Shown here one piece after another: positions 1 to 63,000 of a DNA stretch of 64,000 nt (positions are counted from its first letter, which is position 1; each line of letters starts with the position of its first letter). The position numbers are program-made. The DNA comes from Mytilus edulis. Lineage: Eukaryota. Location of the stretch: contig NC_092353.1 in NCBI RefSeq assembly GCF_963676685.1, positions 36,518,001-36,582,000 on the forward strand, read 5' to 3'.

Positions 1-3000
1 TATTTAGTTCTCATGTGAAAACCAATTTTAATCCATATAGTATTACAATTGTCTATTTTATTGTTTGCATTTAATCATACAATAGTCCTTAAATGAAAAT
101 ATTTCAAGTTTAACAACAATAGATATTTTTCAAATCAAGCGAACACGTATTGAAAATGTCTCTTTTCATACTAGTAAACAAGAATGACACCATAGTATAT
201 TATGTTACAACACCTTTTGATAATCATCAAGGCGATTGAAAACTATATTTGAGGTTTGAAACATAACACTTCGCAATCTGATATATATATATATAGTATT
301 CTATTTTTATACACAATTTGTTTCACTGCCAACATTCTTGATTTGGTTGTAAGCATGTCTATTGTGTTATATTGAAAAATGAATAGAATAAAGTCAAAAG
401 TTCAATTTAAACTAAAAGACAACAATAAAAACAAATATAAGTTGTGATTTCCTTAGTTGATAAAGTGAATGTAACGATAACTCTTTAGGTTTTTATTGTA
501 TTCCATGTCCGTAACAACATAGAGATATCGAAGAGATTTGGCCAAATTATTTATGTTTACCCTCTTCCAAATACATTGTAGAGCGGAAAAAAAGGATTCA
601 GAACTAATATAAATTTTTTCCAGCTTACAGCAATGTACAGAATCAAAAGGACAAACGAATACTCAAAATATACGGTAGATTCAGATAGTGATGATGATTA
701 CATTGAAGATAAACAAAGCTTGAAAAGCTATCCTCAACCAAGACGCGCAATGACAATAGTGACAACTAGGTCAGCCCCTGAACAGCGTCCTAAGAGAATT
801 GTCAAAAGGTATGTTGCTCCTCGAAAGAGAGAATTAGGAGGAGACCGCATTATGTATCCATCAAATCGATGCATTAGAAGTCTTAATTTAAAAAAGGAAA
901 GTGAAGCTATTCTTTCTTCTGTTTATTACAGAGATAACGAACACAGTAAAGTCAAGGTCATTCGATCAGAACCTATAAATAAACGGATTAATGAAGCATG
1001 TTATTCGTCCCGAAAAAAGAAACCCGAAAAACTTTCATATTTTTCTCCGCCATTGCGATTTAATACCAGGGTAAATTCGGGAAGTGGAAGTTTAACTGGC
1101 TCTTCAACTGCTTACAGTGACAGTACTCATACCAAAGTGAAAACCAAACGGTTTGAAAGAAGAATTGAAAGTTTTTCAAGTTCATCGAAAAGACCCATCA
1201 TACCTTATCACATAATTGGAAAATCCGCTGACAGCTTCGCAAAACGGATGATGATGACTGAAGTTGTATCATCTTTAAAAGATGAAACAGTTACCAAGGT
1301 GGTCGGTAGACCTGATGATATTCTTCAACATAAGATAGAATGTATTCCTCCAAAGGAAGTTTCTGACTGTCAAAAACAAGGAAGCAATCTGACCCATCAA
1401 ACCCAACAGGTAATCAAAAACAATTCTGGTGTAAATTTTATCCGACCCTATAGTGAACTTTATGAACTAAAGGATCAAGTTGAGAACAAGAGTGATTCAG
1501 CGGATAAACCGAAATCTTGCAACAGAATAAATCAGAAAAAGTCTTTTGAAAATTACTCTTTTTCAAGATTGAGTGAAAGTTCCGAATCAGTTGAAAGTGA
1601 TGGAAATACAACAGACAGCTCTGCAAATCAACATAGTGTCATGCACAAAACCACGTCTGCGAGGTCAAATCCGACAATATGTCTTCACGTGGACTACTCG
1701 AAAGTGTTAGAATCCAGAGAGAAAGAAGAACCCGACAACATTGAAGTTAAGATATATTACGATGAGGATTTTGAATCAATATATCCGAAGCTACATAAAA
1801 AAAGTCCAAAGTAAGTTGTTGATACAGATTTCAGACCACCCACAGAAATACTAGAACTGAAACATTTGACTTATTTGAACGTCATATTGTACCACAACTA
1901 AAGTTAAATAGTAAAAAAAAGATGTGATACACATCCCAATGTTGTAAGTTAAAATACAAAATGATTACTACTTTTGGGTTGACTTCTATATAAGTACCAT
2001 CATTATCCCTTTGCTTCACGTTTGATTTAAGCTGTTTTGATCTGAACGTCACTGATGAGTCTTATGTAGACGAAATGAGCGTTTGGCGAATTAAATCCTA
2101 ACTCTGGTACCTTTGATAACTATTTGATATATTAACGATGTTTCCTTACTAAATATGCATAGTTATATCTTTGTATATTGCTTTTAGTCTATAATTTAAC
2201 CATGATTATCGGTTGAGCACTTAACCTAACAATGACAGATATGATATCAGTTTTCTTTTTGGGACCTTTTGATTTAGATGCAGTAAAAGTTCAGACGCGC
2301 CTGAAATAGAATATATACCAGAGCTTACATTTCATGACATGGTTTAATTATGTTATGCTATGGAACAAAGAGTTTACAACAAAAGTTTAAATGTTTAATG
2401 GACGCTTTAATAATTTGCTTGATCACCGTCATGAAATGTGTGTGTCAAAGATGACAACGTCCATGTATAAATTCAAATTGTTGTGCCAGTAGCGACAATA
2501 AAATCTGTGTTTTTCTCAACTCTGTCATCTTTAAATGTAACGCATAACTTTCATTGTAGTTGCATAAGCAACAAAAGTTGATAACTAGTCCGGAGCACAT
2601 GAGTTCAATTATAGTTTTTGATGAGGTTTGTGTTCCTTGGTCTAAAGTTTTACTGTATAGTGAACAGTACTTTAGTAGGCTTTTTCACAAATTTTTTTTG
2701 CAATGTCATTGTTATTGTTTGTATCAATTTCTTGATATCTTGGTTTGTGTGTTTCTGCTTGAGTAAGAATGAATGTTACACAATGTGGAGTGCTGTACCA
2801 CTAATTTTTACATGATATCTATTATGCTTGTATGTTTTGTTCGCACATTGTAATTTATATAATGCGAATTCAACAAGTGAGTTGTTTAGATAGCTATCAA
2901 TCAAGGTTTAATCCAAAATTGTCAACATAAGAAAATGCCTGTACCAATAGTTATCAAAGGTACCAGGATTATAATTTAGTACGCCAGACGCGAGTTTCGT

Positions 3001-60000: not shown

Positions 60001-63000
60001 ATCAGGTTGTTGCTCAAATGTGTTTTATAATGTTGGTATAGTTACTAATAAATAATCAAATTGCCCGAAATAATCAGTCATACTTATATTTTTCATGACT
60101 TAATATTAATTCATATTAAATACTTGCAACAACAAAAAACTATATGGAAACTATTTAGCTCCTATTTTAAACCATGTCTTTTTTTTATATTTCAAATTGT
60201 TTTCCGATTTTAGATTTACAAACAAGACATACTGTAGGCAATCATCTATAATTATTGTTTGACAAACCGATATAATTATTAAATTATTATTGATTACTAA
60301 AAGTTTCTTGTTTTTATGACTCGCGTTAAATTCATTTTACACAACGAAACGAAAAGAACTTGCTCGTTACTGTATTTTACCAATATTTATAGCCACTTGT
60401 AAAAAATTGTGTTTTACAAAATAATGAATCGATTTGGATGTCATACTGTTTCTTGATGTTTTGTCACGTGTTATGTCTTGATTCGCTTTGTAAATCAATC
60501 TCGGAGATATATCTGACACTACACATTGTATTACATACAATGAAATCGATTGCTCTGATCTATCTACCTGCCAGGCAGGTGATCTCAAAGGATTTTAATT
60601 AAATGTATGCATCGGTAAAACAAAGTGCAATTGTACATTAAAGCAATTTACTACCAGTAATTAAGCCTTTAGTTACTGTAATTCTATCTAATTATATAAC
60701 AAAATTATTTCGTTTTAGAGGCGGAAAATGCACTAATTCTTTTTATCTGCTGGTATTTTAAATACCAATTAATTACTGTTGCAACGTTGTTTATTAAAAA
60801 AAATAAGCTTTAATAGTCAAGGCCTTTTGTATTTAGTAAATAGAAGTCGACTTTTAGAAAATAATCCCAAATAATTATGTTATTTTGAATGTGTATTTAA
60901 CTACATATACATTGTGTTATTCAAAATAATCCTTATGCAATTTATCAATTGTTTTTTTGTTTTATGTTTTATGGTTACACAAGTATGATAAAACTATCAG
61001 TTTAAAATCAATTCAAACCGCGATGAACCTAAACAATTAGTCTCGAAAAACACACTCCATGTAATTAAACAATCTTAAAGAAAGATCCAATTTTTAAATT
61101 TCAAAAAACTAACCAGGCGTTACATTGGTTCAATATCATGAATACATACGTGTAGATTTAAAGCGTTATTCATATTCGTTTATATGTGACCTAGGCTTTT
61201 CCTGAGAATATGTGTAAATATATAAATTTCTGACTGTTTGTATTTTTATAACGGTTTGTTTGATGAGGTATTCATCCATATGATTACCAGCGTGTGACGT
61301 AGTGAAAGTGACAGTATATTTCAACCTTATTATTGGCCATACAAACCTGGTTACTAGGGAATAAGCCTTTGACTGGCGGATTAACATATATGTAGTAATT
61401 ATAACTACGAATGTGTATAGAAAGAAAAATGCTTTAAATTTTTATTTAATCCGGTGGGTGTTTTTATAAGGTAATTCGTATGTGACACGGTTCACTGGAC
61501 TGTGATGAGCAAGTATAGACAGCACAGCAACACAAGATTATGGCGAATTGAGAGAGATGGAAAAATAAACAAACCGTTAAAACAAAACACGAACAAACAA
61601 CAGAACGAAACAATAACATGTGGATGTGTTGAAATAATCAAGTGATATTTTTCTGGATTTTAATTAATTTATATACATAGGGATAATAAGAAAATGGCTG
61701 AGCGTTCGAGATCTAAGCATAAGGTGAGGTCACCTAGAATGAAAGCTTCACATGTTCAATATGCTCCCGAGGGCAGACGAGGCAATGTTTATATCGACGA
61801 AGAAGGTAGGCGGATTTATAGAACATCTGGGAAAAGTGGAAATTCAAAGCGATACGTTGTTATGGATGATGGGGAATTAAAACGCGGTGAACGACCGGAA
61901 AAAATTGTATACCAACAGGAGGAAACAGAATATGAAACAATGAGTGAAGCTGATTCAGAATATATGGTCCCGGTACGTCCTAAAGGACCAAATACTTCAA
62001 CTAGAAGAGTAGTCGAAGAACGACCACGTGTTCTAACAAGAAGAGCTATTGCAGAAGAGGAACGACCCGTACTCAGGACCAGGGAAGGAGATACGATTAG
62101 AAGTACTCGCATTTCACGTTCAAGACCCGCGAGTGATTATGTCGTACGGCGCAACAATACTTTGGATAATCGCGAGGAATTGTTTGTACGGTCAGGACGA
62201 CCAGCTAGTGAAGTTCTTGTTCGGCCTTCACGTGAGCGTGTGGTAACAAGAAGAGTTGTAGATGATTCAAATTTACGTGAACGTTATGTTGTAAGGAGTC
62301 GACCTTCTAGTGAAAAACGAATCATTGATAACAGAGAGGTAGAGATTGTCAGAAGACCGAGATCCGAAGAACGTGTAACATATGTTAAAAGGCCAGTATC
62401 TGAAGAAACAAATGTAAAATACGTTACTAGGAATAGCTATCGAGACCGACAACCTGTTGGCTATGTTACGAAAGAACAATCAGCTAACGAAAGGGCTTTG
62501 CAAAGACAAGAATATATAGAGTACCCACAGGAATACATAGTTCAACGTCCGCCAACACGCGACGTCGGTTGTCAGATGACCACAAATTACGTCATACAAC
62601 CACAGCCAAAACAGAAAAAACTGTTACGTAATGTTCAAACGCAGACTTTTAAGAAGCCAAAGCAACGAAAAATCAAAACTGCAACACATTATTATCAAAG
62701 GGAAACAGTGGAAGTCGTACAGGAACCGGATCCACCAACACCAAGGGAGCCTACTCCTAGAACACCGTCTCCACCACCACCGCCACCACCTCGAATGCTA
62801 ACGCCTGAACCACCAAGACAACCGAAACCACCTAAAAAGAAGAAACAAAAGAAGGTAATTTTCATTTTTTATGTGGCTAAATATTAACGAACAATTTTGT
62901 ATGAAGAGTATTATATTTTGTACAAAGTGCACATAGCACACTAATGCTGCTGTAAATATACCAAGTTTCTTTTTCTAACCTAATCCAATAGCATATCACT

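What the first reader, a model, noticed from the sequence alone, without database searches (positions are those of the whole stretch)
633..62854. Tandem cluster of GAR-derived genes built by splicing unrelated giant disordered exons onto a half-GAR exon
Seen in sequence: three paralogous terminal exons carry V(K/R)VGGGW…DY..RH.P (32683, 40201, 49253), all phase 0. One is fed by a short exon carrying the N-half of GAR. The other two are fed by 545-aa and 817-aa disordered exons that show no similarity to each other or to the GAR N-half. Genes C and D have the same layout of a giant exon ending in Lys at a phase-0 donor. Established: GAR is a microtubule-binding module normally found intact next to a CH domain (GAS2/GAS2L) or EF-hands (spectraplakins). 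Inference: this is a lineage-specific, rapidly duplicating family in which the C-half GAR exon acts as a portable tag, possibly cytoskeletal, ciliary or sperm proteins. I do not recognise this architecture from any described family.
Basis: partly seen in the sequence, partly recalled or inferred. Interest (0 to 1): 0.85.

Follow-up and report, generated by a model that had tools for sequence, protein, structure and literature searches.

The report
Mussel gene cluster with half-GAR exons
In a blue-mussel gene cluster, several long low-complexity proteins end in only the second half of a microtubule-binding GAR domain, beside a tiny gene that keeps the whole domain; the genes are real and old, but what the half-domain does is untested.

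Summary
The window is Mytilus edulis. Three paralogous last exons (32683-32907, 40201-40407, 49253-49471) are the only VGGGW-bearing exons in six frames. Each matches only positions 43-68 of the 69-position Pfam GAS2/GAR model.

All three splice models match public proteins. The short gene is a 117-aa GAR-only protein. A3 (545+68 aa) equals XP_071134418.1. B2 (817+72 aa) has orthologues with the same junction. Contigs of 917-931 nt hold the whole short ORF across an 8,974-nt intron.

I add or correct five points:
- The intron falls right after the Lys aligned with GAS2 R242. The last exon therefore carries strand beta4, the G-hairpin, beta5 and helix alpha2, where most mapped tubulin contacts lie, and those residues are kept.
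- All three genes, including the "complete" one, lack the C-terminal Asp and Cys zinc ligands.
- The last 60 aa of A's giant exon are its most conserved part. Gene D's family shares this module, and it is a 33-aa cassette in one relative.
- The paralogues predate the Mytilus species split, so "rapidly duplicating" is not supported.
- A decayed copy of the N-half exon lies at 12290-12427.

Whether the N-half was replaced or only diverged stays open, because the controls failed. This is a new variant of a known kind, of moderate interest.

The parts
633..1915 (+). A1: A-type paralogue without a GAR exon. The ORF 633-1814 (393 aa) ends in a stop. Homology to A3's pre-junction module continues in another frame to about 1915.
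   Evidence: 1725-1898 is 78% identical in DNA to 38087-38261; orthologue P0005 in M. coruscus, 68%
12290..12427 (+). Decayed copy of the short gene's N-half exon. The Cys-x-Cys region is deleted, the frame is disturbed and the GT donor is lost.
   Evidence: tblastn E 0.022-0.19; DNA alignment shows a near-identical 3' block; collinear upstream match 11513-11597 to 23158-23247
13905..15343 (+). A2: A-type paralogue that ends ...QLEVWT then a stop at 15185. DNA homology to A3 runs on to 15343. No GAR exon.
   Evidence: the same end is seen in M. coruscus P0006 and in P0008; orthology 63%
23580..23708 (+). Short gene, exon 1 (43 codons from the ATG). It holds the GAR N-half with PPCKC and strand beta3, and ends on the Lys aligned with GAS2 R242.
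   Evidence: 93% identical to P0017 residues 1-43
23709..32682 (+). Short-gene intron (8,974 nt), inflated by an antisense LINE.
25937..32516 (-). Non-LTR retrotransposon inside that intron. It has a gag-like ORF with CCHC knuckles (31158-32516), an unassigned 394-aa ORF (29736-30920), and an endonuclease + RT + zf-RVT ORF of 1268 aa (25937-29743). Both named ORFs are uninterrupted. Described only.
32683..32907 (+). Short gene, terminal exon (74 aa + stop): GAR C-half plus tail.
   Evidence: (35.9 bits, profile 43-67); 93% identical to P0017 residues 44-117
36638..38272 (+). A3 giant exon (545 aa, pI 9.1, 72% polar or charged residues).
   Evidence: 100% identical to XP_071134418.1 residues 1-545; composition
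38093..38272 (+). Conserved pre-junction module: the last 60 aa of the A3 exon. 38147-38272 matches the 33-aa cassette of a D-type relative.
   Evidence: 98/88/70/65% identity; 73.8% to P0032 residues 231-271
40201..40407 (+). A3 terminal exon (68 aa + stop): GAR C-half plus tail.
   Evidence: (25.8 bits, profile 47-68); 100% identical to P0001 residues 546-613
42257..43309 (+). B1: truncated B-type paralogue (350-aa ORF), with no GAR exon found.
   Evidence: (E 7e-22 to B2)
46278..48728 (+). B2 giant exon (817 aa, pI 9.4). It contains a 60-nt coding tandem repeat at 47107-47449.
49253..49471 (+). B2 terminal exon (72 aa + stop): GAR C-half plus tail.
   Evidence: (21.0 bits, just under the 21.3 cut-off); 97% identical to P0013 residues 758-826
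52992..54434 (+). Gene C giant ORF up to a candidate phase-0 donor (CCAAAG|GTAGAG). No partner exon and no relative found.
   Evidence: no hit; Atlas best 0.76, below the useful range
61694..62854 (+). Gene D giant exon, with phase-0 donor AAGAAG|GTAATT. Its later exons lie beyond the window.
   Evidence: N-terminal homology to P0019, P0020, P0018, P0022 and P0032, which end in an A-like half-GAR exon; nothing in 62855-64000

Best explanation
This is a Mytilus-restricted tandem cluster of real protein-coding genes. They descend from, and still sit next to, a small 117-aa GAR-only gene.

In that gene a phase-0 intron splits the GAR domain immediately after strand beta3. The paralogues A3 and B2, and D by homology, keep only the last exon. 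That exon encodes strand beta4, the Gly-Gly-Gly hairpin, strand beta5 with its Trp, helix alpha2, and a family-specific tail of the form Y.(G/S)(F/I).S.YK. It is spliced to long, basic, low-complexity first exons that evolve faster than it does.

In families A and D, a conserved 33-60-aa module of undetectable origin occupies the slot of the GAR N-half. In family B nothing conserved does. The whole family, the 117-aa gene included, has lost the Asp and Cys zinc ligands that normally clamp the two halves of a GAR together.

The cluster grew by old segmental duplications of a unit holding a short gene plus an A gene. One copy later decayed: a relic N-half exon remains, and A1 and A2 lack a GAR exon.

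Inferred, not shown: the retained half carries most of the mapped tubulin contacts. These proteins would therefore use it as a C-terminal microtubule-lattice anchor, with long disordered projections.
For: Shown:
- Exons, splice sites and phase.
- Public proteins with exactly these junctions. A3 has orthologues in 5 named Mytilus species (P0001, P0053, P0002, P0004, P0057). B2 has the junction in 3 (P0013, P0014, P0016). The short gene has it in P0017 and P0059.
- Transcript-like contigs. Contigs of 917-931 nt hold the whole short ORF across the junction (P0060-62). In a distant A relative, two contigs cross the junction without an intron (P0012, P0031), while P0029 reads on into unrelated sequence after the same ...PQPK.
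- GAS2 profile coverage is 12-67 for the short gene's orthologue and only 46/47-68 for 6 of 6 A and B proteins.
- hhalign between the A/D module and the short-type GAR aligns only the terminal-exon region (probability 99.1, 56 columns).
- Mapping onto GAS2 (alignment; residue roles from PMC12084551 section 10). R252 aligns with K/K/R in the short gene, A3 and B2. G254-256 is GGG, W257 is W, K266 is R and H267 is H in all three. The intron follows the Lys aligned with R242.
- The zinc ligands are Cys-Cys-Asp-Cys (PMC10656233 passage). The Asp and Cys positions read V,Y in the short gene, E,V in A3 and V,V in B2.
- Terminal exons are better conserved than giant exons. For B2 against M. californianus the figures are 88-90% against 32-68%.
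- Duplication structure and old orthology.
Against: - Microtubule binding is untested, and I saw no expression data.
- AlphaFold gave no confident fold for the A module with its terminal exon (mean pLDDT 38.7). It also failed on the 117-aa control (46.6), so neither 'half domain' nor 'whole domain' is shown structurally.
- B2's exon is just below Pfam's cut-off (21.0 against 21.3 bits), and the three B proteins scanned (P0013 of M. edulis, P0014, P0016) score 15.5-20.2 bits.
- D-type relatives have Thr at the R252 position.
- A1 and A2 persist without any GAR exon, so the low-complexity part may carry the main function.
- For A3 and B2 of M. edulis itself I have gene models only, not reads.
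Confidence: 0.6

Rival explanations
1. The GAR domain is complete in A and D, and perhaps in B. On this view the conserved pre-junction module is the old N-half exon, diverged beyond recognition after the zinc clamp was lost. These would then be ordinary GAR-domain proteins with long N-terminal extensions, not carriers of a half-domain.
For: - The module sits exactly in the N-half's exon slot, before the same phase-0 intron.
- It is a separate 33-aa in-frame cassette in a D-type gene of M. californianus (isoform X1 against X2), which is close in size to the 25 GAR residues of the short gene's exon 1.
- It is the best conserved part of the A exon.
- The A/D profile's alignment to GAS2 (1v5r, E 1.4e-4) runs weakly about 14 residues upstream of the junction, and the spacing to GGGW is similar.
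- The negative tests prove little. The genuine N-half exon alone finds nothing in Pfam or among PDB sequences.
Against: - hhalign aligns nothing upstream of the junction.
- Pfam covers only profile positions 46/47-68 in 6 of 6 A and B proteins.
- The module has no Cys-x-Cys.
- The A and B pre-junction peptides find no GAR among PDB sequences.
- B's last 60 aa are no better conserved than the rest of its exon.
- The AlphaFold model is unfolded.
Confidence: 0.25
2. The half-GAR exon is a protein-protein interaction or localisation tag unrelated to microtubules, or is functionally neutral baggage. The low-complexity regions would then do the work.
For: - The GAS2L3 GAR binds chromosomal passenger complex subunits, and the degenerate SNAP1 GAR is dispensable for localisation (PMC10656233 passages).
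- The GAR-less A1 and A2 keep ORFs of about 400 aa in two species.
- The zinc ligands are lost in all members.
Against: - The terminal exon is the best conserved part of B2, and among the best of A3.
- The positions aligned with GAS2 R252, G254-256, W257, K266 and H267 (R252, G255, W257 and K266 were mutated in PMC12084551; H267 is a structural contact) are kept in the 3 window exons and in the A, B and short-type relatives aligned (read by eye from those alignments; roles); D-type relatives have Thr at the R252 position.
Confidence: 0.12
3. The pattern is an annotation artefact or a set of pseudogenes. On this view the giant ORFs and GAR exons are not joined in life, or all belong to one conventional GAS2-like gene with a CH domain.
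For: - A1, A2 and B1 lack terminal exons, and a relic exon exists.
- For A3 and B2 of M. edulis I saw models, not reads.
Against: - The same junctions appear in independent annotations of 3-5 species.
- Intron-free contigs exist for the short gene and for a distant A relative.
- Open frames of 545-930 aa are kept in a genome of about 32% G+C.
- No CH domain is found in any of the 7 relatives scanned.
Confidence: 0.03

Closest known systems
GAS2 and GAS2L1-3 (CH domain + GAR domain; Pfam PF02187)
   Same: The terminal exons align with GAS2 from strand beta4 to the loop after helix alpha2, including the Arg/Lys, the GGG hairpin, the Trp and the Lys/Arg-His that contact tubulin. The 117-aa protein matches profile positions 12-67/69. 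RefSeq names it 'growth arrest-specific protein 2-like'.
   Different: - No CH domain is present.
- A and B show no detectable N-half.
- The Asp and Cys zinc ligands are replaced in all three genes.
- There is a family-specific tail after the domain.
- The partners are long low-complexity exons.
Spectraplakins (MACF1/ACF7, dystonin): EF-hand-GAR module
   Same: A GAR near the C-terminus of a long protein. There are weak sequence matches to 5ve9 and 5x57 (E 0.026-0.08).
   Different: There are no EF-hands, spectrin repeats or CH domains. The zinc site that PMC12084551 (introduction passage) calls pivotal for the domain's integrity is not conserved here.
Trypanosoma brucei SNAP1 (coiled coils + degenerate C-terminal GAR)
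   Same: A lineage-specific protein with a C-terminal GAR-like piece that lacks most zinc ligands (passages of PMC10656233).
   Different: SNAP1 also lacks 4 of 5 basic microtubule-binding residues and keeps a whole-domain model. The mussel exons keep the contact residues but lack a detectable N-half.
Classical exon shuffling of whole domains
   Same: A phase-compatible (0/0) exon is shared by genes whose other exons are unrelated.
   Different: The shared exon encodes part of a domain, not a whole one. It is a terminal exon, so tandem duplication followed by replacement of the 5' exon explains it as well as shuffling does.

Membership tests
GAR / GAS2 domain (PF02187) | Match to the Pfam model above its gathering score, over most of its 69 positions | tested here: inconclusive
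   Met for the short gene through its orthologue P0017 (41.1 bits, profile 12-67). The A3 exon scores 25.8 bits and B2 21.0 bits (cut-off 21.3), covering only profile 47-68. A and B relatives score 15.5-22.8 bits over 46/47-68 only.
GAR / GAS2 domain (PF02187) | Zinc site Cys-Cys-Asp-Cys (alpha1-beta1 loop plus the loop after alpha2) | tested here: not met
   Ligand identities come from a PMC10656233 passage. The short gene has 2 of 4 (Cys-x-Cys present; Asp replaced by Val, Cys by Tyr). A3 has Glu and Val at the last two positions and no aligned Cys-x-Cys. B2 has Val and Val.
GAR / GAS2 domain (PF02187) | Tubulin-contact residues of beta4, the G-hairpin, beta5 and alpha2 (GAS2 R252, G254-256, W257, K266, H267) | tested here: met
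   Kept in 3 of 3 terminal exons, allowing Lys/Arg exchange (roles from PMC12084551 section 10). D-type relatives have Thr at R252.
GAR / GAS2 domain (PF02187) | Alpha/beta sandwich of five antiparallel strands flanked by two helices | tested here: inconclusive
   The AlphaFold A module has mean pLDDT 38.7. The control P0017 has 46.6, with GAR-like order of elements. Its best Foldseek hits are 1v5r (E 0.016) and 9kbw (E 0.11), and 0 of 77 matches reach E<=0.001.
GAR / GAS2 domain (PF02187) | Binds the microtubule lattice | not testable with these tools
   No assay or localisation data were available.
GAS2/GAS2L or spectraplakin architecture | GAR accompanied by a CH domain or EF-hands | tested here: not met
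   Pfam on 7 relatives found no CH or EF-hand. The giant exons have no Pfam family.
Exon-shuffled module | The same exon, with compatible phase, joined to unrelated exons in different genes | tested here: met
   Three phase-0 junctions. A against B exons gives E 0.53. However, A and D share the pre-junction module.

The most novel reading that the evidence does not exclude
A sub-domain piece of GAR, made of strand beta4, the Gly hairpin, strand beta5 and helix alpha2 and freed from the zinc clamp, works on its own as an exon-encoded microtubule-groove anchor. Unrelated disordered proteins acquired it through an intron that splits the domain. That would be a natural case of part-domain reuse, and a minimal microtubule-binding element defined by evolution.
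Probability: 0.3. Interest if true: 0.65.

Novelty: new variant of a known kind. Interest (0 to 1): 0.42.

Why it matters
If the half-domain is functional on its own, it marks the smallest natural unit of GAR that still recognises its target. It would also show that an intron inside a domain can let evolution reuse part of a fold.

The 2025 cryo-EM work on GAS2 places most tubulin contacts in just this half, which makes the idea directly checkable by structure and localisation.

If instead the module in A and D is a disguised N-half, the family shows how far a GAR can drift once its zinc site is lost.

Either way, the cluster gives mussel genome annotators a name and a gene structure for proteins now filed as 'uncharacterized', 'asparagine-rich protein-like' or 'WASP homolog-associated protein...-like'.

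Tried and rejected
1. Pfam and PDB-sequence searches of the pre-junction peptides alone found no GAR. The genuine N-half exon alone is also invisible to both. These negatives therefore carry no weight.

2. AlphaFold on the A/D module plus terminal exon (9-row alignment) and on the 117-aa control (5 rows) both gave low confidence. 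I did not run a fold search on the A model, because it would be meaningless.

3. The representative-search hit P0024 (5301 aa, 51 bits) was rejected as an artefact. It is the sum of 16 repeats of at most 4.4 bits each.

4. The ESM Atlas search for gene C gave a best score of 0.76, below the useful range.

5. I looked for a partner exon for C and for later exons of D inside the window, using motif scans and tblastn at E<=10. Nothing was found.

6. I looked for a hidden N-half exon in the A3 and B2 introns with tblastn at E<=10. None was found. The only extra copy in the window is the relic at 12290-12427.

7. Literature: 'GAS2'+'Mytilus' gave 4 papers, none on this family judging from titles and abstracts in the listing. 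'GAR domain'+'exon shuffling' gave 0 papers. PMC6288423 is not held. Supplements and appendix figures, such as the GAR alignment of PMC12084551, could not be seen.

8. Not checked:
- No eukaryotic genome or read collection was available, so I have no orthologous DNA, no intron positions in other GAR genes and no RNA-seq.
- I did not use genome contigs, which holds prokaryotes.

Full report
SOURCE AND SETTING. The window is about 32% G+C with no N runs. It comes from the blue mussel Mytilus edulis: the ORF 36638-38272 is 100% identical to residues 1-545 of XP_071134418.1. It is not human. Whole-protein evidence comes from public proteins that the searches returned.

THE OBSERVATION. A six-frame motif scan found 4 matches. 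The exons translate to 74, 68 and 72 residues, each followed by a stop. They are 43-47% identical pairwise (E 2e-12 to 6e-9). They share V(K/R)VGGGW..DY..RH.P and also a downstream tail, Y.(G/S)(F/I).S.YK. Donors (AAG|GTA...) and acceptors (...cag|) are canonical and in phase 0.

Pfam, searched exon by exon, finds GAS2 (PF02187) in 3 of 3 terminal exons at 35.9, 25.8 and 21.0 bits against a cut-off of 21.3. The matches always cover profile positions 43-68 of 69. None of the other 7 peptides has a GAS2 hit, and that includes a 36-aa piece of the true N-half exon.

THE GENE MODELS ARE REAL.
- A3: XP_071134418.1 (613 aa) equals the 545-aa exon plus the 68-aa exon. The same junction occurs in M. 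galloprovincialis, M. trossulus, M. californianus and M. coruscus (P0053, P0002, P0004, P0057).
- B2: the junction ...YFRVPSK|KDCNK... occurs in P0013 (M. edulis), P0014 (M. trossulus) and P0016 (M. californianus).
- Short gene: P0017 (M. trossulus, 117 aa, named 'growth arrest-specific protein 2-like') and P0059 (M. galloprovincialis) equal 43 codons from the ATG at 23580 plus the 74-aa exon.

There is transcript-like evidence as well. Unnamed contigs of 917-931 nt hold the whole 117-aa ORF, or a 129-aa one, although the intron here is 8,974 nt (P0060-62). In a distant A-type relative, two contigs (P0012, P0031) cross the junction without an intron. A third (P0029) reads on into unrelated sequence after the same ...PQPK. 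For A3 and B2 of M. edulis itself I have models, not reads.

Accession numbers and shared contigs suggest conserved gene order, which I did not check at the DNA level. The evidence is LOC134687321/LOC134687322 in M. trossulus; VDI44168-44171 and the B2-type fragment P0015, all on one M. galloprovincialis contig of 266,882 nt; and CAC5398211/CAC5398212 in M. coruscus.

WHICH HALF OF GAR IS KEPT. P0017 matches profile 12-67. The three A proteins and three B proteins match only 46/47-66/68. A profile-profile comparison of the A/D C-terminus with the short type aligns only the terminal-exon region (probability 99.1, 56 columns).

The alignment of P0017 with GAS2 (9kbw and 1v5r, E 1.3e-8) can be numbered against the residues named in the cryo-EM study of GAS2-GAR on microtubules. 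I read section 10 of PMC12084551 in full.
- The mussel intron follows the Lys aligned with R242, at the end of strand beta3.
- The terminal exon holds strand beta4 (R252 is Lys, Lys and Arg in the short gene, A3 and B2), the G254-256 hairpin (GGG in all), W257 (Trp in all), and K266 and H267 of helix alpha2 (Arg-His in all).
- That paper reports that changing R252, G255, W257 or K266 weakens binding. The retained exon therefore carries most of the mapped contacts.
- Of beta3's two contacts, the short gene keeps both. A3 and B2 at least end their giant exon on Lys.

THE ZINC SITE IS GONE IN EVERY MEMBER. A passage of PMC10656233 gives the GAR zinc ligands as Cys-Cys in the alpha1-beta1 loop and Asp-Cys after helix alpha2. 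In the 117-aa protein the Cys-x-Cys is present, but Asp and Cys are replaced by Val and Tyr. A3 has Glu and Val at those positions, and B2 has Val and Val. The clamp that ties the N-half to the C-terminal loop was therefore lost before, or along with, the loss of a recognisable N-half. That ordering is my inference.

WHAT STANDS IN FRONT OF THE HALF-DOMAIN. The A and B giant exons are basic (pI 9.1 and 9.4), about 71-72% polar or charged, and without any Pfam family. They are unrelated to each other (E 0.53). The A exon is not featureless, however. Its last 60 residues are its best conserved part. Against M. trossulus, M. californianus and the two distant relatives P0012 and P0021, identity there is 98, 88, 70 and 65%. 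Elsewhere in the distant pair it is 7-46%.

A search of 1.84 billion representatives with this module plus the terminal exon found only 14 proteins at E<=0.001. One of them (P0024) is a repeat artefact. Among the rest are D-type proteins (P0018, P0019, P0020, P0022). Their N-termini match the window's gene D, and they end in an A-like terminal exon. Gene D therefore belongs to the family, with its last exons beyond the window.

In one M. californianus gene, RefSeq isoforms X1 and X2 (P0032, P0019) differ by exactly 33 in-frame residues. Those residues are this module, and they are 73.8% identical to A3's 38147-38272. The module thus occupies the exon slot that the N-half holds in the short gene.

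Whether the module is a diverged N-half or a replacement cannot be decided here. The evidence for a diverged N-half is its position, its size, and a weak upstream extension of the alignment to GAS2. The evidence against is hhalign, Pfam and the lack of a Cys-x-Cys. Every single-exon test also fails on the true N-half. AlphaFold fails on both the module (pLDDT 38.7) and the control (46.6). The control's best fold matches are the two GAS2 GAR structures, but they are weak (E 0.016 and 0.11, with 0 of 77 matches at E<=0.001).

In family B the last 60 residues are no better conserved than the rest (67% against 32-68%). The terminal exon is 88-90% conserved.

HISTORY OF THE CLUSTER. Self-comparison gave 48 off-diagonal alignments.
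- A1 (633-1915), A2 (13446-15343) and A3 (36146-38272) are related at 65-67% DNA identity, including their upstream regions.
- B1 and B2 are related at 70-82%.
- A decayed copy of the N-half exon lies at 12290-12427. Its 3' block is nearly identical but its donor is lost. Its upstream flank is collinear with that of the live exon (11513-11597 with 23158-23247).
- The duplicated unit therefore held a short gene followed by an A gene. In the older copy the short gene died and A2 lost its 3' end.
- A1 and A2 lack GAR exons, yet each has its own M. coruscus orthologue with the same truncated end (68% and 63% identity). A3's orthologue is 78% identical, while the paralogues are about 40-47% identical to each other. 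The duplications predate the split of these species. 'Rapidly duplicating' is not supported, whereas 'fast-evolving' is.

Gene C (52992-54434) has a plausible phase-0 donor but no partner exon and no relative that I could find.

MOBILE ELEMENTS (described only).
- The short gene's intron holds an antisense non-LTR retrotransposon (25937-32516). It has a CCHC gag-like ORF and an uninterrupted 1268-aa endonuclease/RT/zf-RVT ORF.
- A second element lies on the + strand between A2 and the short gene (18757-22838). It has a weak GDSL-esterase-like ORF (22.7 bits, below the 32.9 cut-off) and an uninterrupted 1178-aa endonuclease/RT ORF.
- A third is a remnant (outer bounds 6889-8285, - strand). It covers only the last third or so of such an ORF, in two pieces in two frames.

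VERDICT. The best reading is a Mytilus-restricted, old family derived from a GAR-only gene. Its members keep the contact-bearing last exon of a zinc-less GAR behind long low-complexity exons, and in A and D a conserved module stands in the N-half's place. Microtubule anchoring is the most likely role, but it is inferred. I found no paper on the family. Public databases list its members as uncharacterized, or under names borrowed from low-complexity matches.

Noticed in passing
window 2946-4197 (- strand motifs at 2981-3024, 3329-3372, 3684-3727, 4038-4081): A 355-nt tandem repeat (3.5 copies, 95% alike) carries a type I hammerhead ribozyme motif in every unit. One of the 4 motifs is above Rfam's gathering score (38.4 bits); the others score 33.0, 32.5 and 25.2. 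Related partial copies lie at 2035-2125 (inverted) and 24183-24346. From memory, this resembles the ribozyme-bearing repeats (retrozymes) reported in invertebrates; I read no paper on that.
   Followed up: partly
window 18757-22838 (+): A non-LTR retrotransposon lies between A2 and the short gene. It has a 190-aa ORF with a weak GDSL-esterase-like match (22.7 bits, below cut-off) and an uninterrupted 1178-aa endonuclease + RT ORF.
   Followed up: partly
window 6889-8285 (-): A 5'-truncated remnant of a related retrotransposon. It has two ORF2 pieces in two frames, covering only about the last third of the protein.
   Followed up: partly
window 29736-30920 (-): A 394-aa ORF with no family match sits between the gag-like ORF and the RT ORF of the intronic retrotransposon. 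It may be spurious AT-rich sequence.
   Followed up: no
window 39913-40234: A 161-nt tandem duplication (97.5% alike) copies the A3 acceptor site and the first 11 codons of its terminal exon. A second potential acceptor near 40040 would give a product without the GGGW hairpin.
   Followed up: no
window 47107-47449: A 60-nt coding tandem repeat (5.7 copies, 20-aa units) lies in the B2 giant exon. Copy number differs between the window, P0013, P0014 and P0016.
   Followed up: partly
window 55377-55823; 45329-45456; 23791-23897: Three self-complementary (palindromic) stretches, 83%, 82% and 72% alike to their own reverse complement. The last lies just downstream of the short gene's donor.
   Followed up: no
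P0032 and P0019 (XP_052086926.1 and XP_052086927.1, M. californianus): RefSeq isoforms X1 and X2 of one D-type gene differ by a 33-aa in-frame stretch, which is the conserved pre-junction module.
   Followed up: partly
window 633-1814 and 13905-15185: The GAR-less paralogues A1 and A2 keep ORFs of about 400 aa with the same truncated ends in M. coruscus (P0005, P0006). This hints that the low-complexity part has a function of its own.
   Followed up: partly
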